From positions 1 through 6,357 of the IMG/VR virus record IMGVR_UViG_3300032431_000286: a DNA stretch of 6,357 nt; one strand, written 5' to 3'. A program made the translations under genes and the position numbers. Below, piece by piece: positions 2,379 to 5,408 of the stretch. Positions within the stretch are counted from its first letter, which is position 1. Each line of letters starts with the position of its first letter. The notes below the pieces were generated by a model. The model did no database searches. It worked only from the letters and a program-made list of their open reading frames with translations, and was not told the origin of the DNA. The stretch is from a virus.

Positions 2379-2489
2379 TCACACCACGCCGTAAATCCGA
2401 CGGATGAAAGAGCGAGCAAGACCGGCCGAATACCCGGTGATGAAAAACACGCCAGCAGCTCCAAACCAAAACAACGCACTCTCAACCAC
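2379..2489 (-). CDS. Small hydrophobic protein (36 aa, GTG start), a candidate pVII/pIX-like minor coat protein. It is not in the supplied ORF track.
   Basis: Hand translation gives (M)VESALFWFGAAGVFFITGYSAGLARSFIRRIYGVV followed by a stop. It has one TM-like segment and a basic tail. The GTG starts 2 nt after the preceding stop codon, with GGGAG 5 nt upstream. It fills the gap before the coat gene, where Ff phages encode gVII and gIX. Confidence 0.4.
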   Translation of the reverse strand: MVESALFWFGAAGVFFITGYSAGLARSFIRRIYGVV

Positions 2490-2491
2490 GG

Positions 2492-2707
2492 CTACTCCCG
2501 AGCGCCGACCGAATAGCCAAAGAAGGTAATGCAGCACATGACAGCCCACAGCACGCCCTCAAGCAGCGTCGAAAGCTTTTCGGACTGCGCCAGGAGCGCC
2601 GCCGCTGTTACTTCGGTCGCCGGTTGCACCCACTGGGCCGAGGCCCCGAAGGACGCCAAGGACACCACGAAGAAGGCCACGATCAGCCAGGCCAGGCGCG
2701 CGGTCAC
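2492..2707 (-). CDS. Small membrane protein (71 aa) with a signal-peptide-like N-terminus and a C-terminal hydrophobic segment. Candidate minor virion or assembly protein.
   Basis: The GTG start overlaps the upstream stop as GTGA (2707-2704). The product is MTARLAWLIVAFFVVSLASFGASA / QWVQ...GVLWAVMCCITFFGYSVGARE. Third-position GC is high and the gene lies in the structural block. Confidence 0.6.
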   Translation of the reverse strand: MTARLAWLIVAFFVVSLASFGASAQWVQPATEVTAAALLAQSEKLSTLLEGVLWAVMCCITFFGYSVGARE

Positions 2708-4400: not shown

Positions 4401-4458
4401 TCTTGACCTTCGGGTGAGGGATGGCGGACGGCTGGATTCTGTACAAAAATTCTAGACC
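4401..4458. promoter_or_regulatory. Divergent control region between the rep and regulator start codons
   Basis: This is a 58-bp gap. On the minus strand TAGAAT (4454-4449) matches the -10 consensus at 5 of 6 positions. On the plus strand TTGACC (4403-4408) matches the -35 consensus at 5 of 6 positions, but there is no good -10 at 17 bp. The palindromes TGTACA (4440-4445) and TCTAGA (4451-4456) and an ATTCT direct repeat are present. There is no SD before the regulator ATG. Confidence 0.3.
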
Positions 4459-4755
4459 ATGCGTGACGTGAAAACCCTACTGGACTTGGCCAAAGTTCGT
4501 GTTAAGACAGACTTAGAACTCGCCAAAAGGCTGGACGTACCACGGAGCCGGGTAAGCGACTGGCGCCATGGCCGCACCGCCATGACCCCGGACAGCGCCG
4601 CCGCGATATGCGACATCCTCGAACTGCCCGCGGACCAGGCGCGGCAATGGGCCGCCGCGATGGTGGTGGCCAACGCGAAGCCGGCGAGCAAGCAAAAGAG
4701 AATGCAGCGCGCGCTATTCGAGCGCATCACAACACCCGCAGCGCCGGCCGAGTAA
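4459..4755 (+). CDS. Cro/CI (XRE)-type helix-turn-helix transcriptional regulator, a phage repressor-like protein of 98 aa
   Basis: TDLELAKRLDVPRSRVSDWRHGRTAM is a textbook HTH. The gene is divergent from rep, as rstR is in CTXphi. The repeated LAK motifs are reminiscent of the phage-related DUF3693 family, which I recall but have not verified. Confidence 0.8.
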   Translation: MRDVKTLLDLAKVRVKTDLELAKRLDVPRSRVSDWRHGRTAMTPDSAAAICDILELPADQARQWAAAMVVANAKPASKQKRMQRALFERITTPAAPAE

Positions 4756-4773
4756 GCCCCGGCTTGCATACCC

Positions 4774-4792
4774 TCCGGGCTGCACGCCCGGA
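4774..4792 (+). terminator. GC-rich hairpin 19 nt downstream of the regulator stop. It is a possible terminator but lacks a U-tract.
   Basis: TCCGGGC-tgcac-GCCCGGA forms a 7-bp stem with a 5-nt loop and has no T-run after it. It is part of a larger GC-rich structured region (4756-4860) that includes TTGCAT/ATGCAA long-range complementarity (4764-4769 with 4815-4820) and a CAGCATGC direct repeat (4811-4818 and 4830-4837). Confidence 0.2.
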
Positions 4793-4896
4793 CCCCTGCG
4801 GGGCAAGGGGCAGCATGCAACCGGACCGCCAGCATGCGCAGGCCGCGATTTAGGGCAACGCGCTTATCAGTGTGGCGGTTTGCCTAACGGGAGACT

Positions 4897-4924
4897 TGAC
4901 CAGGTCGATTGCGCGACCTGGTCA
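4897..4924. repeat. Perfect inverted repeat with an 11-bp stem and a 6-nt loop, located between convergent genes
   Basis: TGACCAGGTCG-attgcg-CGACCTGGTCA. It begins 8 nt downstream of the stop codon of the 48-aa minus-strand ORF (4932-4934). Neither side has a T-tract. Confidence 0.7.
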
Positions 4925-4931
4925 GGAGGTG

Positions 4932-5078
4932 TCAGCAGCCGGGCGCGATCAGCGCCGCCGCGACTTCCCGCATCAGACGTTCATTTGCCCGGATGTTGCT
5001 CGGCCAGGCGAGGTAAAGGCCCCGCAGCCTGGCCAACCACCGCGCCAGGCTCGACGGCCCCACGTCGACGTTGTTCAC
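4932..5078 (-). CDS. Small hypothetical protein (48 aa, GTG start), in frame with the upstream 108-aa ORF and 1 codon after its TGA stop
   Basis: Hand translation gives (M)NNVDVGPSSLARWLARLRGLYLAWPSNIRANERLMREVAAALIAPGC followed by a stop. GAGGG lies 7 nt upstream of the GTG. Third-position GC stays high. The ORF is below the length cut-off of the ORF track. Confidence 0.35.
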   Translation of the reverse strand: MNNVDVGPSSLARWLARLRGLYLAWPSNIRANERLMREVAAALIAPGC

Positions 5079-5081
5079 GGA

Positions 5082-5408
5082 TCAGCCCTCGACGTTTACG
5101 AGGACGTTGACGCGCGTCAAGGTCGGGTCTGCGCGGGTCTGAATCGACGCCGCCGCGTTGATCGCCGCCGCCACCGTGGCGAACTGACGGCCGGCCTCAG
5201 GCGCGCGGGTGCTGGCCAATGTCCAGAACTCAGGAGGCGGGCGCGGCCCCTGAGCTTCGAGCGAAGACAGCGGCCGAGGGCTGAAGATCGTAAGCAGCAC
5301 CTGGAAATCGTCGGTGCCGTACCAGTAGACCTTTATCTCGCCCACCCTGAACAACCCATCGCACCCCACGAGGAGCGCGGTCAACTGTCTGTCTGTGCCG
5401 TAGTTCAT
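5082..5408 (-). CDS. Hypothetical protein (108 aa) in the accessory slot downstream of zot
   Basis: The ATG at 5408 has AAAGGG 5 nt upstream. The product is MNYGTDRQLTALLVGCDGLFRVGEIKVYWYGTDDFQVLL.... Third-position GC is about 85% by hand inspection. The track's longer version (ATG at 5480, 132 aa) adds 24 codons with low third-position GC and no SD. There is no signal peptide or TM segment, and I recognise no family. Confidence 0.6.
   Translation of the reverse strand: MNYGTDRQLTALLVGCDGLFRVGEIKVYWYGTDDFQVLLTIFSPRPLSSLEAQGPRPPPEFWTLASTRAPEAGRQFATVAAAINAAASIQTRADPTLTRVNVLVNVEG

What the first reader, a model, noticed from the sequence alone, without database searches (positions are those of the whole stretch)
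4932..5408. Orphan 108-aa and 48-aa module in the zot-downstream cargo slot, split only by an in-frame TGA
The only coding part of the genome not explained by the inovirus core lies between the zot stop and the convergent regulator gene. ORF 5408-5082 (108 aa, good SD, high third-position GC) ends ...GTC GAG GGC TGA. It is followed in the same frame by TCC GTG and 47 more sense codons (5078-4932) that keep the coding-like third-position GC. GAGGG lies 7 nt before the GTG. Three readings are possible: two translationally coupled cistrons, a TGA read-through fusion of about 158 aa, or a recently interrupted gene. Neither product has a signal peptide, a TM segment or any motif I recognise. In CTXphi the equivalent slot after zot carries ctxAB, and Pf-type prophages carry toxin-antitoxin or exclusion genes in accessory slots. 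This is therefore the prime candidate for a host-modulating, immunity or TA-like moron. It has its own AT-rich upstream region with palindromic repeats.
Basis: partly seen in the sequence, partly recalled or inferred. Interest (0 to 1): 0.7.

Follow-up and report, generated by a model that had tools for sequence, protein, structure and literature searches.

The report
Phage cargo gene behind host parS sites
The odd gene pair after the assembly gene of this small filamentous phage is a real but unknown accessory gene, with its own normal stop codon, plus a probable small add-on gene. The "palindromic repeats" in front of it are two copies of the bacterial chromosome's own centromere sequence (parS), so the phage may borrow its host's DNA-segregation protein ParB.

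Summary
The sequence facts hold. ORF108 (5408-5082, minus strand) ends in TGA, and a 48-codon ORF follows in frame with a GAGGG/GTG start. The window is a complete circular 6,230-nt inovirus.

ORF108 is a real gene. One homologue (47% identity) sits in the same slot of another inovirus, with dN/dS about 0.3. It ends at the same TGA, so the stop is native, not a recent break or a read-through site.

ORF48 is absent from that relative. Its codon usage is coding-like (p about 0.001), so a lineage-specific, translationally coupled small basic protein is the best reading. Neither ORF matched any family, fold or defence model.

The unexpected part lies upstream. The "palindromic repeats" are two copies of CGTTTCACGTGAAACG. 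This is the canonical chromosomal parS (ParB-binding centromere) except at its two outer, permissive positions. The identical 16-mer precedes every ORF108-like gene found except one, in three inovirus lineages and a tailed-phage-like element. It is missing from nine relatives that lack the gene.

Best reading: a mobile accessory cassette of host-type parS plus a small acidic cytoplasmic protein. It would tie the phage episome, and perhaps the cassette's expression, to host ParB. The protein's function remains unproven.

The parts
5566..5581 (.). Distal parS-like site CGTTTCACGTGAAACG. It lies inside the last codons of pI/zot and is part of a 22-nt exact repeat (5560-5581).
   Evidence: Its 14 inner positions match canonical parS TGTTTCACGTGAAACA (PMC5450999, PMC7022226).
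5526..5541 (.). Proximal parS-like site CGTTTCACGTGAAACG, 40 bp from the distal copy and 118 nt upstream of the ORF108 ATG.
   Evidence: The identical 16-mer sits upstream of the homologous genes in L014, L155-157/L068, L158 and L160.
5409..5550 (-). AT-richer intergenic leader and promoter region of ORF108. Blocks conserved with L014 include CAGTTACAC and the Shine-Dalgarno GAAAGGG (5420-5414).
   Evidence: No consensus sigma-70 promoter was found by the scan. L014 has TTGCAA-17-CATAAT in the aligned place (read).
5082..5408 (-). ORF108: a 108-aa acidic (pI 5.2) cytoplasmic protein of a tiny uncharacterised family, with a native TGA stop at 5084-5082.
4932..5078 (-). ORF48: a 48-aa basic (pI 10.6) ORF with GTG start and SD GAGGG at 5090-5086. 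It is lineage-specific, probably coding and probably translationally coupled.
   Evidence: JGI called it as a gene. There is no homologue, and it is absent in L014 and L155.
4897..4924 (.). Perfect 11-bp hairpin (TGACCAGGTCG / CGACCTGGTCA, 6-nt loop) 8 nt after the ORF48 stop. It is the likely end of the convergent transcription units.
   Evidence: (I14).
4756..4896 (.). Structured non-coding block between the hairpin and the HTH gene. Hairpin 4775-4791 keeps its loop but has compensatory stem changes in L014. It is a candidate origin, packaging or terminator element, not part of the cargo gene.
   Evidence: ssDNA fold z = -3.7 for 4756-4931.
4459..4755 (+). Convergent 98-aa XRE/Cro-CI-type HTH regulator (context).
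   Evidence: Homologues at 35-40% identity occur in L014, L068/L155 and L007.
5551..6357 (-). pI/zot assembly ATPase (293 aa). Its first 25 codons are at 202-128, because the window is a circular genome with a 127-nt overlap (context).

Best explanation
The region is the payload of a small mobile accessory ('moron') cassette in the variable slot between the assembly gene pI/zot and the convergent repressor of a complete 6,230-nt episomal inovirus, probably of Burkholderiales.

The cassette has three parts:
(i) Two host-chromosome-type parS sites (5526-5541 and 5566-5581).
(ii) ORF108, a genuine, complete, soluble and mildly acidic cytoplasmic protein of a very small new family. Its TGA is the ancestral stop.
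(iii) In this phage only, ORF48, a small basic ORF that starts 3 nt after that stop behind its own Shine-Dalgarno sequence. It is most likely translated by coupling, not by read-through.

Shown here: the gene is real, the stop is native, the slot is variable, and the 16-mer is identical to parS at all positions that matter for ParB. The 16-mer also travels with this gene family.

Inferred: host ParB binds these sites on the double-stranded replicative form. This would link the phage episome to the host ParABS segregation machinery and keep it stably inherited without integration. It may also dampen the adjacent cassette promoter, as ParB does at chromosomal parS3 and parS4 in Pseudomonas aeruginosa.

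ORF108 is then a ParB-linked maintenance or host-interaction factor, not a virion or assembly protein. Its biochemical activity is unknown.
For: Genome and slot:
- The window has a 127-nt terminal overlap and three identical assemblies.
- The gene order is rep, ssDNA-binding-like, coat genes, pIII, pVI, pI, ORF108, ORF48, then the HTH on the other strand.

ORF108 is real and complete:
- An exhaustive HMMER search of 1.84 billion representatives found one homologue (P0003, E 1.8e-13).
- It lies directly after pI and before a convergent HTH in another inovirus (L014/L162).
- Identity by codon position is 0.59/0.65/0.41 (chi-square p = 2.5e-4) and dN/dS is about 0.29.
- Start, Shine-Dalgarno and stop positions coincide in the DNA alignment, and similarity ends at the stop.

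Distant family:
- A 110-113-aa family (A4) sits in the same slot of a third inovirus lineage (L155-157/L068) and in a tailed-phage-like early operon (L158-160).
- hhalign gives probability 69%, E 4.5e-5 over 71 columns. These are the top non-self hits of the ORF108 HMM among 9,462 ORFs.

parS:
- The 16-mer differs from canonical TGTTTCACGTGAAACA only at positions 1 and 16. Along with the 5/12 transition, these are among the few symmetrical changes that Burkholderia cenocepacia ParBc1 tolerates (PMC5450999, section 18).
- It is 16/16 identical in all seven instances, although the proteins have diverged to about 27-47% identity.
- It is present in 3 of 3 pI-clade lineages with the gene and 0 of 9 without (Fisher p = 0.0045). 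The carriers are not monophyletic in the pI tree.
- The same sequence occurs next to parB genes and next to gidA/mnmG in metagenomic chromosomal contigs.
- A single chromosomal parS together with the cognate chromosomal par operon stabilises unstable plasmids, and ParB represses promoters next to parS (PMC7022226).

Other support:
- No integrase or dif-like site was found in the window.
- Relatives L003 and L004 carry a ParB-family gene in the same slot.
- All family members are acidic (pI 5.2-6.3), which argues against them being the DNA binder.
- ORF48 is probably coding: shuffle p = 0.0012, and only 0.75% of off-frame 48-codon windows reach its score. Its DNA is unstructured (z = -0.36). 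JGI called it as a gene.
Against: - No experiment or structure links ORF108 to ParB, ParA or partition. AlphaFold models are poor (pLDDT 50-52) and Foldseek finds nothing.
- The host is unknown, so the presence of a canonical ParB is assumed from relatives in Burkholderiales.
- One family member (L159) has a different sequence in place of parS, so the link is not obligatory.
- In the window and in L014 the sites lie about 100-130 nt upstream of the start codon, probably upstream of the promoter and not within it. Direct promoter occlusion is therefore clear only in the L155/L158 group.
- Homology between the ORF108 pair and the 111-aa family is only probable.
- A multicopy replicative form may not need partition.
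- The 16-mer is frequent on viral contigs generally (more than 120 hits), so its presence alone does not prove function.
- ORF48 has no homologue, and 19% of true coding windows score as low as it does.
Confidence: 0.55

Rival explanations
1. The palindromes are operators for a phage-encoded regulator (the convergent HTH repressor or ORF108 itself) and resemble parS only by coincidence or convergence. The cassette would then be an ordinary autoregulated moron with no link to host ParB.
For: - The site co-occurs strictly with the gene family.
- In L155/L158/L160 the site sits between a -35-like and a -10-like hexamer, a typical operator position.
- XRE-type HTH dimers bind palindromes of this size.
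Against: - The site is 16/16 invariant although the candidate binders have diverged strongly: ORF108-like proteins to about 27-47% identity and the HTHs to about 40%. That fits a highly conserved host protein better.
- No similar site lies in the rep/HTH divergent promoter.
- L007 has a related HTH but no site, and L158-160 have the site (in two of the three) but no such HTH.
- ORF108-like proteins are acidic.
- The sequence equals parS at every position ParB needs (PMC5450999).
Confidence: 0.17
2. ORF108 and ORF48 are one gene: a TGA read-through (or recoded) product of about 158 aa, or a gene interrupted recently by a nonsense mutation.
For: - The two ORFs share a frame, and GC3 stays high across the stop.
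- ORF48's composition is coding-like.
Against: - The 47%-identical homologue ends at the homologous TGA, and the sequence beyond it is unalignable and hairpin-rich.
- The in-frame open stretches after the stop in L014 (37 codons) and L155 (43 codons) have no codon periodicity.
- In L158-160 the next gene overlaps by ATGA in another frame.
- ORF48 has its own SD and GTG start.
- Being in frame is a 1-in-3 chance.
- No homologue of any length spans both parts among 1.84 billion representatives.
Confidence: 0.05
3. ORF48 is not a gene. It would be a chance open frame, or the decaying remnant of a captured coding sequence, in the 3' untranslated region of ORF108.
For: - No homologue was found anywhere.
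- It is absent from both related lineages, which have non-coding DNA here.
- The two other gene callers (ENA, Logan) did not call it.
- Open frames of this length are common at 67% GC.
Against: - Its codon-usage score lies in the range of real genes and is reached by 0.75% of off-frame windows. Shuffle p is 0.0012, and 0.0001 for GC3 minus GC2.
- It has a well-placed SD and a start 3 nt after the stop.
- The strong hairpin follows ORF48, not ORF108.
- A remnant of formerly coding DNA would also explain the composition.
Confidence: 0.35
4. ORF108 (with or without ORF48) is a toxin or immunity component paired with the HTH regulator as a toxin-antitoxin-like or abortive-infection module.
For: - The HTH has weak sub-threshold similarity to HigA-type antitoxins and to a PHROG 'plasmid antitoxin with HTH'.
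- The partners are small, one acidic and one basic.
- Pf-type phages carry toxin-antitoxin genes (general knowledge).
Against: - The genes are convergent and not in one operon.
- The HTH belongs to the phage-repressor family phrog_638 and occurs in relatives without ORF108.
- ORF108-like genes occur without this HTH in L158-160.
- There are no PADLOC, Pfam or NCBIfam toxin or defence hits.
Confidence: 0.06

Closest known systems
Chromosomal parS (Spo0J/ParB centromere, TGTTTCACGTGAAACA) and its ability to stabilise plasmids in the presence of chromosomal ParAB
   Same: - The 14 inner positions are identical, the palindrome is perfect, and two copies lie close together, like the parS clusters near oriC.
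- The only differences are at the distal positions 1 and 16, which ParBc1 of Burkholderia tolerates (PMC5450999).
- The same variant is found next to parB and gidA genes.
- A single parS plus the chromosomal par operon stabilises unstable plasmids (PMC7022226).
   Different: - Here the sites are on a 6.2-kb filamentous-phage genome that encodes no ParA or ParB.
- Binding and function are untested.
- The sites are tied to a small unknown gene, not to an origin region.
Plasmid-prophage partition modules (P1 ParAB-parS, N15 SopAB, cluster-A mycobacteriophage ParABS); recalled from general knowledge
   Same: These are phage genomes maintained as episomes through a ParB-centromere system. Their centromere sites can lie in or near phage promoters and influence expression.
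   Different: Those phages encode their own ParA and ParB with private centromere sequences. This phage carries only the host's universal site, so it would depend entirely on host proteins.
ParB or KorB as transcriptional repressors at parS/OB sites (P. aeruginosa parS3/parS4 upstream of PA0011/PA0013; RK2 KorB)
   Same: The parS site lies immediately upstream of, or within, the promoter of the adjacent gene. In L155/L158/L160 it sits between the -35-like and -10-like hexamers. ParB bound at intergenic parS represses neighbouring promoters (PMC7022226).
   Different: No expression data exist. In the window and L014 the sites are about 100-130 nt from the start codon, and the promoter is not mapped.
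The post-zot cargo slot of CTXphi (ctxAB) and the accessory genes of Pf-type prophages
   Same: There is a positional analogy. The accessory locus lies downstream of the assembly ATPase and next to the repressor, has its own regulatory region, and varies among relatives.
   Different: There is no sequence or fold similarity to CtxAB, toxin-antitoxin or exclusion proteins. The pI here is M13-like (45% identity). The cargo is linked to a host centromere sequence.

Membership tests
Chromosomal-type parS site (ParB/Spo0J binding site) | 16-bp palindrome matching TGTTTCACGTGAAACA, especially at positions 2-15 | tested here: met
   CGTTTCACGTGAAACG occurs at 5526-5541 and 5566-5581, matching 14 of 16 positions with mismatches only at 1 and 16. 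The consensus is taken from PMC5450999 and PMC7022226.
Chromosomal-type parS site (ParB/Spo0J binding site) | Deviations confined to positions known to be tolerated by ParB | tested here: met
   PMC5450999 section 18 states that for B. cenocepacia parSc1 only the distal (1-16) changes and the 5-12 transition keep binding. Caulobacter sites are listed with t/c at position 1 (PMC7022226 table).
Chromosomal-type parS site (ParB/Spo0J binding site) | The same sequence serves as a natural parS near parB/oriC in bacterial genomes | tested here: met
   Of 19 other metagenome loci with the 22-mer, 6 encode a ParB homologue within about 1-2 kb. L021 has two sites beside mnmG/gidA.
Chromosomal-type parS site (ParB/Spo0J binding site) | Specific binding by the host's ParB, with ParA-dependent segregation | not testable with these tools
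   The host is unknown. The nearest pI relatives are prophages of Burkholderiaceae, Rubrivivax and Variovorax. EMSA, ChIP and plasmid-stability assays are needed.
Moron / mobile accessory cassette | Present or absent among otherwise syntenic relatives, and found in unrelated phage backbones | tested here: met
   The cassette is present in the window, L014/L162 and L155-157. It is absent in L003-L012, where the slot has other content or is empty. Carriers have different Rep types, Rep_trans versus G2P. Related genes lie in an operon with an O-like replication initiator in L158-160.
Moron / mobile accessory cassette | Own promoter and terminator | tested here: inconclusive
   There is an AT-rich leader with conserved blocks and a strong downstream hairpin. 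The sigma-70 scan found no site in the window, and promoter-like hexamers were read only by eye in L014 and L155.
Programmed stop-codon read-through / interrupted gene | Conserved coding extension beyond the stop in homologues, or a sense codon at that position | tested here: not met
   The homologue stops at the same TGA and there is no conservation downstream. The post-stop frames in L014 and L155 lack codon periodicity.
Type II toxin-antitoxin module | Two adjacent co-directional genes in one operon, with a recognisable toxin or antitoxin family | tested here: not met
   ORF108 and the HTH are convergent. Neither ORF108 nor ORF48 hits any toxin or antitoxin family. The HTH is below the HigA cutoff (21.2 against 47.7 bits).
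Inovirus core virion or assembly proteins (pI/pXI, pIV, coat proteins) | Sequence homology, or a signal peptide or TM segment typical of these proteins | tested here: not met
   There is no PHROG or Pfam hit and no hydrophobic segment. The gene is absent from most relatives that share the same morphogenesis module.
ORF108 family (window ORF108 plus L014/L162 ORF106) | Significant full-length sequence similarity, the same genomic slot, and shared start and stop | tested here: met
   E 1.8e-13 against 1.84 billion proteins, BLASTP 5e-19, and alignments A1 and A2.
Wider family including the 110-113-aa proteins P0006-P0009 | Detectable homology by profile comparison | tested here: inconclusive
   hhalign gives probability 69%, E 4.5e-5. 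HMM cross-hits are only E 0.026-0.42 in one direction and 2.8 in the other. The same slot, size, charge and upstream parS support the link, but they are context, not homology.

The most novel reading that the evidence does not exclude
A non-integrating filamentous phage pirates the host's chromosomal ParABS system through two canonical parS sites and encodes no Par protein of its own. The ORF108-family protein that always travels with these sites is a new factor acting with, or gated by, the host ParB-CTP clamp. It might tune ParB loading or spreading on the tiny genome, or touch ParA. Its N-terminus GTDRQLTALLVG loosely recalls the ParB N-terminal GLGRGLxALLG motif, which I quote from memory.
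Probability: 0.25. Interest if true: 0.8.

Novelty: new variant of a known kind. Interest (0 to 1): 0.55.

Why it matters
How episomal, chronically infecting inoviruses are stably inherited without integrating is poorly understood.

A 6.2-kb phage that carries only the host's universal centromere sequence would be a minimal natural case of centromere piracy, and it is directly testable. Clone 80 bp, then measure ParB binding, focus formation and plasmid stability.

It would also give a first functional handle on an otherwise anonymous protein family that moves between phage types together with parS. It would suggest as well that host ParB can act as a regulator of phage genes.

On the annotation side, in-frame stop-separated ORF pairs in GC-rich phage genomes should not be read as read-through or pseudogenes unless a homologue supports that reading.

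Tried and rejected
Family and database searches:
- Pfam, PHROGs, NCBIfam and PADLOC scans of ORF108, its homologue, ORF48 and the 111-aa family found nothing.
- A profile search of PDB sequences gave only noise, with a best E of 0.035 over a 37-residue Ala-rich helix.
- tblastn and blastn against GenBank phages and PLSDB plasmids found nothing.
- The word-indexed search of 5.8 billion proteins returned only the protein itself.

Structure:
- AlphaFold2 on the single sequence and on a 2-sequence alignment gave pLDDT 50-52.
- Foldseek against PDB had no hit below E 0.1.

Other scans:
- Rfam found nothing relevant.
- A degenerate DNA pattern across the stop-codon junction had no hit in JGI metagenome contigs.

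Ideas considered and dropped:
- The upstream ATG at 5480 as the start. It has non-coding composition and is not conserved.
- The long plus-strand ORF 4872-5456. It has the wrong codon periodicity and a score of -0.12.
- ORF108 as a split-off pXI-like C-terminal part of pI. It has no TM segment and is absent from most relatives.
- The palindrome as the Rep origin. Carriers have two unrelated Rep types.
- The palindrome as the HTH operator. There is no copy at the rep/HTH promoter.
- A dif-like Xer site in the window. None was found.
- A conserved 'basic in-frame tail' after the stop in three lineages. The L014 and L155 stretches lack coding signal.
- DUF3653/XafT-like identity of the regulators in L003 and L004. 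Not found.
Full report
WHAT THE WINDOW IS.
The 6,357-nt window has a 127-nt terminal direct repeat and is 100% identical to two other assemblies: ENA ERZ27246954 (6,371 nt with a 141-nt overlap) and Logan SRR5468153 (6,260 nt with a 30-nt overlap). It is therefore a complete circular genome of 6,230 nt.

All genes but one run on the minus strand. In order they are:
- a Rep_trans-type replication initiator (4400-3336);
- small genes of 98, 98 and 71 aa, then the 69-aa major-coat-like gene;
- a pIII-like gene of 488 aa and a pVI-like gene of 106 aa;
- a 293-aa pI/Zot ATPase that runs across the junction (202-128, then 6357-5551);
- ORF108 (5408-5082) and ORF48 (5078-4932).

A 98-aa XRE-type HTH regulator (4459-4755, plus strand) converges on them. 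No GenBank phage is similar at the DNA level. The pI is 45% identical to M13 pI, and the Rep is 32-36% identical to RSS1/PE226-type Reps. The closest pI relatives are prophages of Burkholderiaceae, Rubrivivax and Variovorax, plus IMG/VR contigs.

THE OBSERVATION.
Two caveats apply:
- Sharing a frame is a 1-in-3 event.
- A 48-codon open frame is unremarkable at 67% GC. With a stop probability of about 0.023 per codon, roughly a third of frames stay open that long.

Only the codon bias of ORF48 exceeds chance.

ORF108 IS A REAL, COMPLETE GENE.
The word-indexed search of 5.8 billion proteins returned only the protein itself. An exhaustive HMMER pass over 1.84 billion cluster representatives, queried with the fused 158-aa sequence, returned one true relative. 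This is P0003, with E 1.8e-13 and 47% identity over residues 10-105. The other two hits (P0004, P0005) are long repetitive proteins matched over short stretches and I disregard them.

P0003 lies on a JGI contig (L014) directly after pI and before a convergent HTH gene. A 6,344-nt version of that phage (L162) comes from the same two samples as the window phage and has a G2P-type Rep instead of Rep_trans.

The true start in L014 is the upstream ATG, giving 106 aa. MNTVTDRQMVALLV aligns with MNYGTDRQLTALLV. This confirms the 5408 start and rejects the 5480 start.

Selection acts on this frame:
- Identity by codon position is 0.59/0.65/0.41 (chi-square p = 2.5e-4).
- Nei-Gojobori dN/dS is about 0.29, with dS near saturation.
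- Divergence of ORF108 (47%) is similar to that of pVI (41%) and the HTH (40%) between the two phages. pI is 65% identical.

THE TGA IS THE NATIVE STOP.
In the DNA alignment of the two loci (A1) the coding regions align codon for codon up to a TGA at the same column (...GTC GAG GGC TGA against ...TTC GAC GTT TGA). Similarity then collapses. L014 has a hairpin-rich, non-coding 250 nt before its HTH gene and nothing resembling ORF48.

The frame also stays open after the stop in L014 (37 codons) and in a third lineage, L155 (43 codons). Those stretches have flat or inverted GC by codon position (0.81/0.73/0.65 and 0.56/0.60/0.60), against GC3 of 0.69-0.83 in the real genes of those phages. They are chance frames.

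In the tailed-phage-like loci the next gene overlaps the family member by ATGA, in a different frame. No protein in the 1.84-billion set spans both parts. Read-through fusion and recent interruption are therefore not supported.

ORF48.
It exists only in this phage. Four points favour coding:
- Its codon log-likelihood ratio is 0.20 bits per codon, within the range of rep, pIII and pI. It ranks just below all the accepted genes among 58 ORFs of at least 40 aa.
- Shuffling gives p = 0.0012 for that score and 0.0001 for GC3 minus GC2. Only 0.75% of 48-codon windows in wrong frames of the core genes reach it, and 19% of true coding windows score lower.
- Its DNA is not unusually structured (z = -0.36), whereas the next 176 nt are (z = -3.7).
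- The perfect 11-bp hairpin (4897-4924) follows ORF48, not ORF108.

The JGI pipeline called it as a gene; the ENA and Logan callers did not.

With SD GAGGG 7 nt upstream and the GTG 3 nt after the ORF108 stop, translational coupling is the natural reading. I put the chance that ORF48 is a functional gene at about 0.6. The alternative is a chance frame or a relic of captured coding DNA. It is basic (pI 10.6), whereas ORF108 is acidic (pI 5.2).

THE SLOT IS VARIABLE AND THE CASSETTE IS MOBILE.
Among the relatives that share the pIII-pVI-pI module, the space after pI holds different things:
- nothing (L006);
- a 72-92-aa 'DRDWY' protein with a C-terminal TM segment (L003, L004, L007, L012);
- in L003 and L004, additionally a convergent ParB_N/HTH_ParB/KorB protein.

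One IMG/VR relative (L068; full genomes L155-157, with L155 circular at 6,713 nt) has a 111-aa acidic protein in the slot. It has three homologues at 65-73% identity.

Profile-profile comparison of the ORF108 pair with this family gives probability 69%, E 4.5e-5 over 71 columns. The N-terminal TDRQLTALLV aligns with TAQQLAAMIV, and STR..R.F.T..AA...A..I aligns with STR..R.Y.T..AA...A..I. These proteins are also the best non-self hits of the ORF108 HMM among 9,462 ORFs, at E 0.026-0.42. I regard the homology as probable, not proven.

Three of the family members (L158-160) lie in an operon together with small ORFs and a membrane protein. Two of those loci (L158, L159) also show a wHTH protein that resembles lambda-O-type replication initiators in L158 and MarR-family HTH domains in L159. 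L158 additionally carries an endonuclease-VII/Lar-like zinc-finger protein. That backbone is different.

Carriers of the cassette are not monophyletic in a pI tree, because L014's nearest relative is L003. Their Rep types also differ. The cassette therefore moves, or is replaced, as a unit.

THE PALINDROMIC REPEATS ARE HOST-TYPE parS SITES.
The repeat is CGCTAACGTTTCACGTGAAACG, present twice and 40 bp apart (5520-5541 and 5560-5581). The distal copy forms the last codons of pI. The palindromic core CGTTTCACGTGAAACG equals the universal chromosomal parS TGTTTCACGTGAAACA at positions 2-15.

[quoted passage not shown] It also reports that for Burkholderia cenocepacia ParBc1 all symmetrical changes abolish binding except the distal (1-16) ones and the 5-12 transition. 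PMC7022226 lists tGTTNCACGTGAAACa for B. cenocepacia chromosome I and t/c at position 1 for Caulobacter.

Four further results support the identification:
- The exact 16-mer sits upstream of every ORF108-like gene I could inspect except L159. These are the window (two copies), L014/L162, L068/L155-157, L158 and L160.
- It is absent, even allowing 3 mismatches, from all eleven fetched loci that lack the gene. For the pI-clade lineages whose slot is visible, the count is 3 of 3 with the gene against 0 of 9 without (Fisher p = 0.0045).
- The flanks and the proteins have diverged heavily, yet the 16 nt are invariant. This fits a binding partner that is itself highly conserved, such as chromosomal ParB. 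It does not fit the fast-evolving, acidic cassette protein (pI 5.2-6.3).
- A scan of metagenome contigs with the 22-mer returned 20 loci. Six of the 19 others encode a ParB homologue within 1-2 kb, and L021 has two sites beside mnmG/gidA, the classic oriC-proximal location.

The 16-mer also hits more than 120 IMG/VR contigs, some in arrays of 2-4 copies. None of these others has a pI of this clade.

HOW IT MOST LIKELY WORKS.
Shown:
- a mobile cassette made of host-type parS plus a conserved small cytoplasmic protein, in the variable post-pI slot;
- no integrase and no dif-like site in this genome;
- a CI/Cro-type regulator;
- a ParB-family gene in the same slot in some relatives.

Established elsewhere (PMC7022226):
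- one chromosomal parS with the chromosomal par operon can stabilise unstable plasmids;
- ParB bound at intergenic parS represses the neighbouring promoters, and silences more widely when overproduced.

Inferred: on the double-stranded replicative form, host ParB loads at the two sites. This would couple the episome to ParA-driven segregation and to the ParB condensate, and it would modulate transcription of the adjacent cassette.

In L155, L158 and L160 the site lies between a -35-like and a -10-like hexamer, 43 nt from the start codon. In the window and L014 it lies 98-133 nt upstream, probably ahead of the promoter. The regulatory part is therefore less certain here.

What ORF108 itself does is not shown. 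My working view is that it is a maintenance or host-interaction factor whose production or action is tied to ParB. I give this about 0.25 for a direct ParABS connection. The alternative is an unrelated effector that merely uses a ParB-gated promoter.

Secondary-structure content from two low-confidence models agrees on three N-terminal strands, a proline-rich loop, a strand, a long helix and a C-terminal strand. No fold match was found.

COMPARISON WITH KNOWN SYSTEMS AND NOVELTY.
- The slot is analogous in position to the ctxAB slot of CTXphi, but nothing is homologous.
- Plasmid prophages such as P1 and N15 carry their own ParB and private centromeres (general knowledge). This phage carries only the host's universal site.
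- In 7.7 million PMC papers and bioRxiv, searches for parS with inovirus or filamentous phage, or for host ParB with phage genome, found no report of such a case. This is not proof that none exists.

I class the finding as a new variant of a known kind: centromere use by an episome, here by piracy of the host site on an inovirus. It is attached to a new, tiny protein family.

VERDICT.
- Observation: confirmed.
- Interpretation: partly supported. The accessory cargo slot, the real gene and the coupled cistrons hold. Read-through, interruption and toxin-antitoxin do not.
- Interest: 0.55.

Noticed in passing
window 5551-6357 plus 128-202 (pI/zot); L003-L014, L155: The pI/Zot proteins of this whole clade are short (277-340 aa). 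The window protein has no hydrophobic segment after the ATPase domain, and no other clade member shows a clear TM-strength peak. M13 pI has its TM at 254-272 and a periplasmic domain. How such a pI is anchored, or how it contacts a secretin, is unclear.
   Followed up: partly
L003 8889-9107, L004 about 8876-9136, L007 5985-6263, L012 about 7043-7318: Several relatives carry, directly after pI, a 72-92-aa protein that starts MG.QDRDWY and ends in a TM segment (phrog_13107, function unknown). It occupies the same slot as ORF108.
   Followed up: partly
L003 9160-10038 (-), L004 9144-9977 (-): Two prophage relatives encode a ParB_N + HTH_ParB + KorB-domain protein, convergent on pI, in the same slot. 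A partition-type function therefore recurs at this position in the clade. Whether it lies inside the prophage borders was not established.
   Followed up: partly
window 4756-4931: This is a strongly structured single-strand region (z = -3.7). It holds a perfect 11-bp hairpin (4897-4924) and a hairpin at 4775-4791 whose loop is conserved and whose stem shows compensatory changes in L014. It is a candidate origin, packaging signal or bidirectional terminator.
   Followed up: partly
window 2382-2549 (-): A 56-aa hydrophobic ORF between the 71-aa gene and the major coat gene has a coding-like codon score (0.21 bits per codon). It was not called by the ENA or Logan pipelines and may be a small coat or assembly protein. 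It has no PHROG hit.
   Followed up: partly
L162 (ENA ERZ27246954) and L163 (Logan SRR5468153): The only clear relative of ORF108 belongs to a second inovirus with a different Rep type. It comes from the very same two samples as the window phage, so the two phages co-occur and may share a host.
   Followed up: no
Some contigs hold arrays of 2-4 copies (L040, L033, L134). Carriage of chromosomal-type parS by phages may be widespread.
   Followed up: partly
L014 about 2054-2067 / L162 5528-5541: A dif-like core (ACAATGTATATTGT, within ATTCCACAATGTATATTGTGACAA) lies inside the 3' part of the HTH gene of the L014-type phage. Nothing similar is in the window or in L155.
   Followed up: no
window 5408-5370 (ORF108 residues 4-15): GTDRQLTALLVG matches 7 of 12 positions of the ParB N-terminal ParA-activating motif GLGRGLxALLG, which I quote from memory. 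The Arg is not conserved in the 111-aa family, so this may be chance.
   Followed up: no
window 4401-4458; L014 2424-2495: The divergent rep/HTH promoter regions carry their own, different repeats: ATTCTGTA/ATTCTAGA in the window and the palindrome CTTCTCCAC-t-GTGGAGAAG in L014. These are presumably the repressor operators and are unrelated to the parS-like sites.
   Followed up: no
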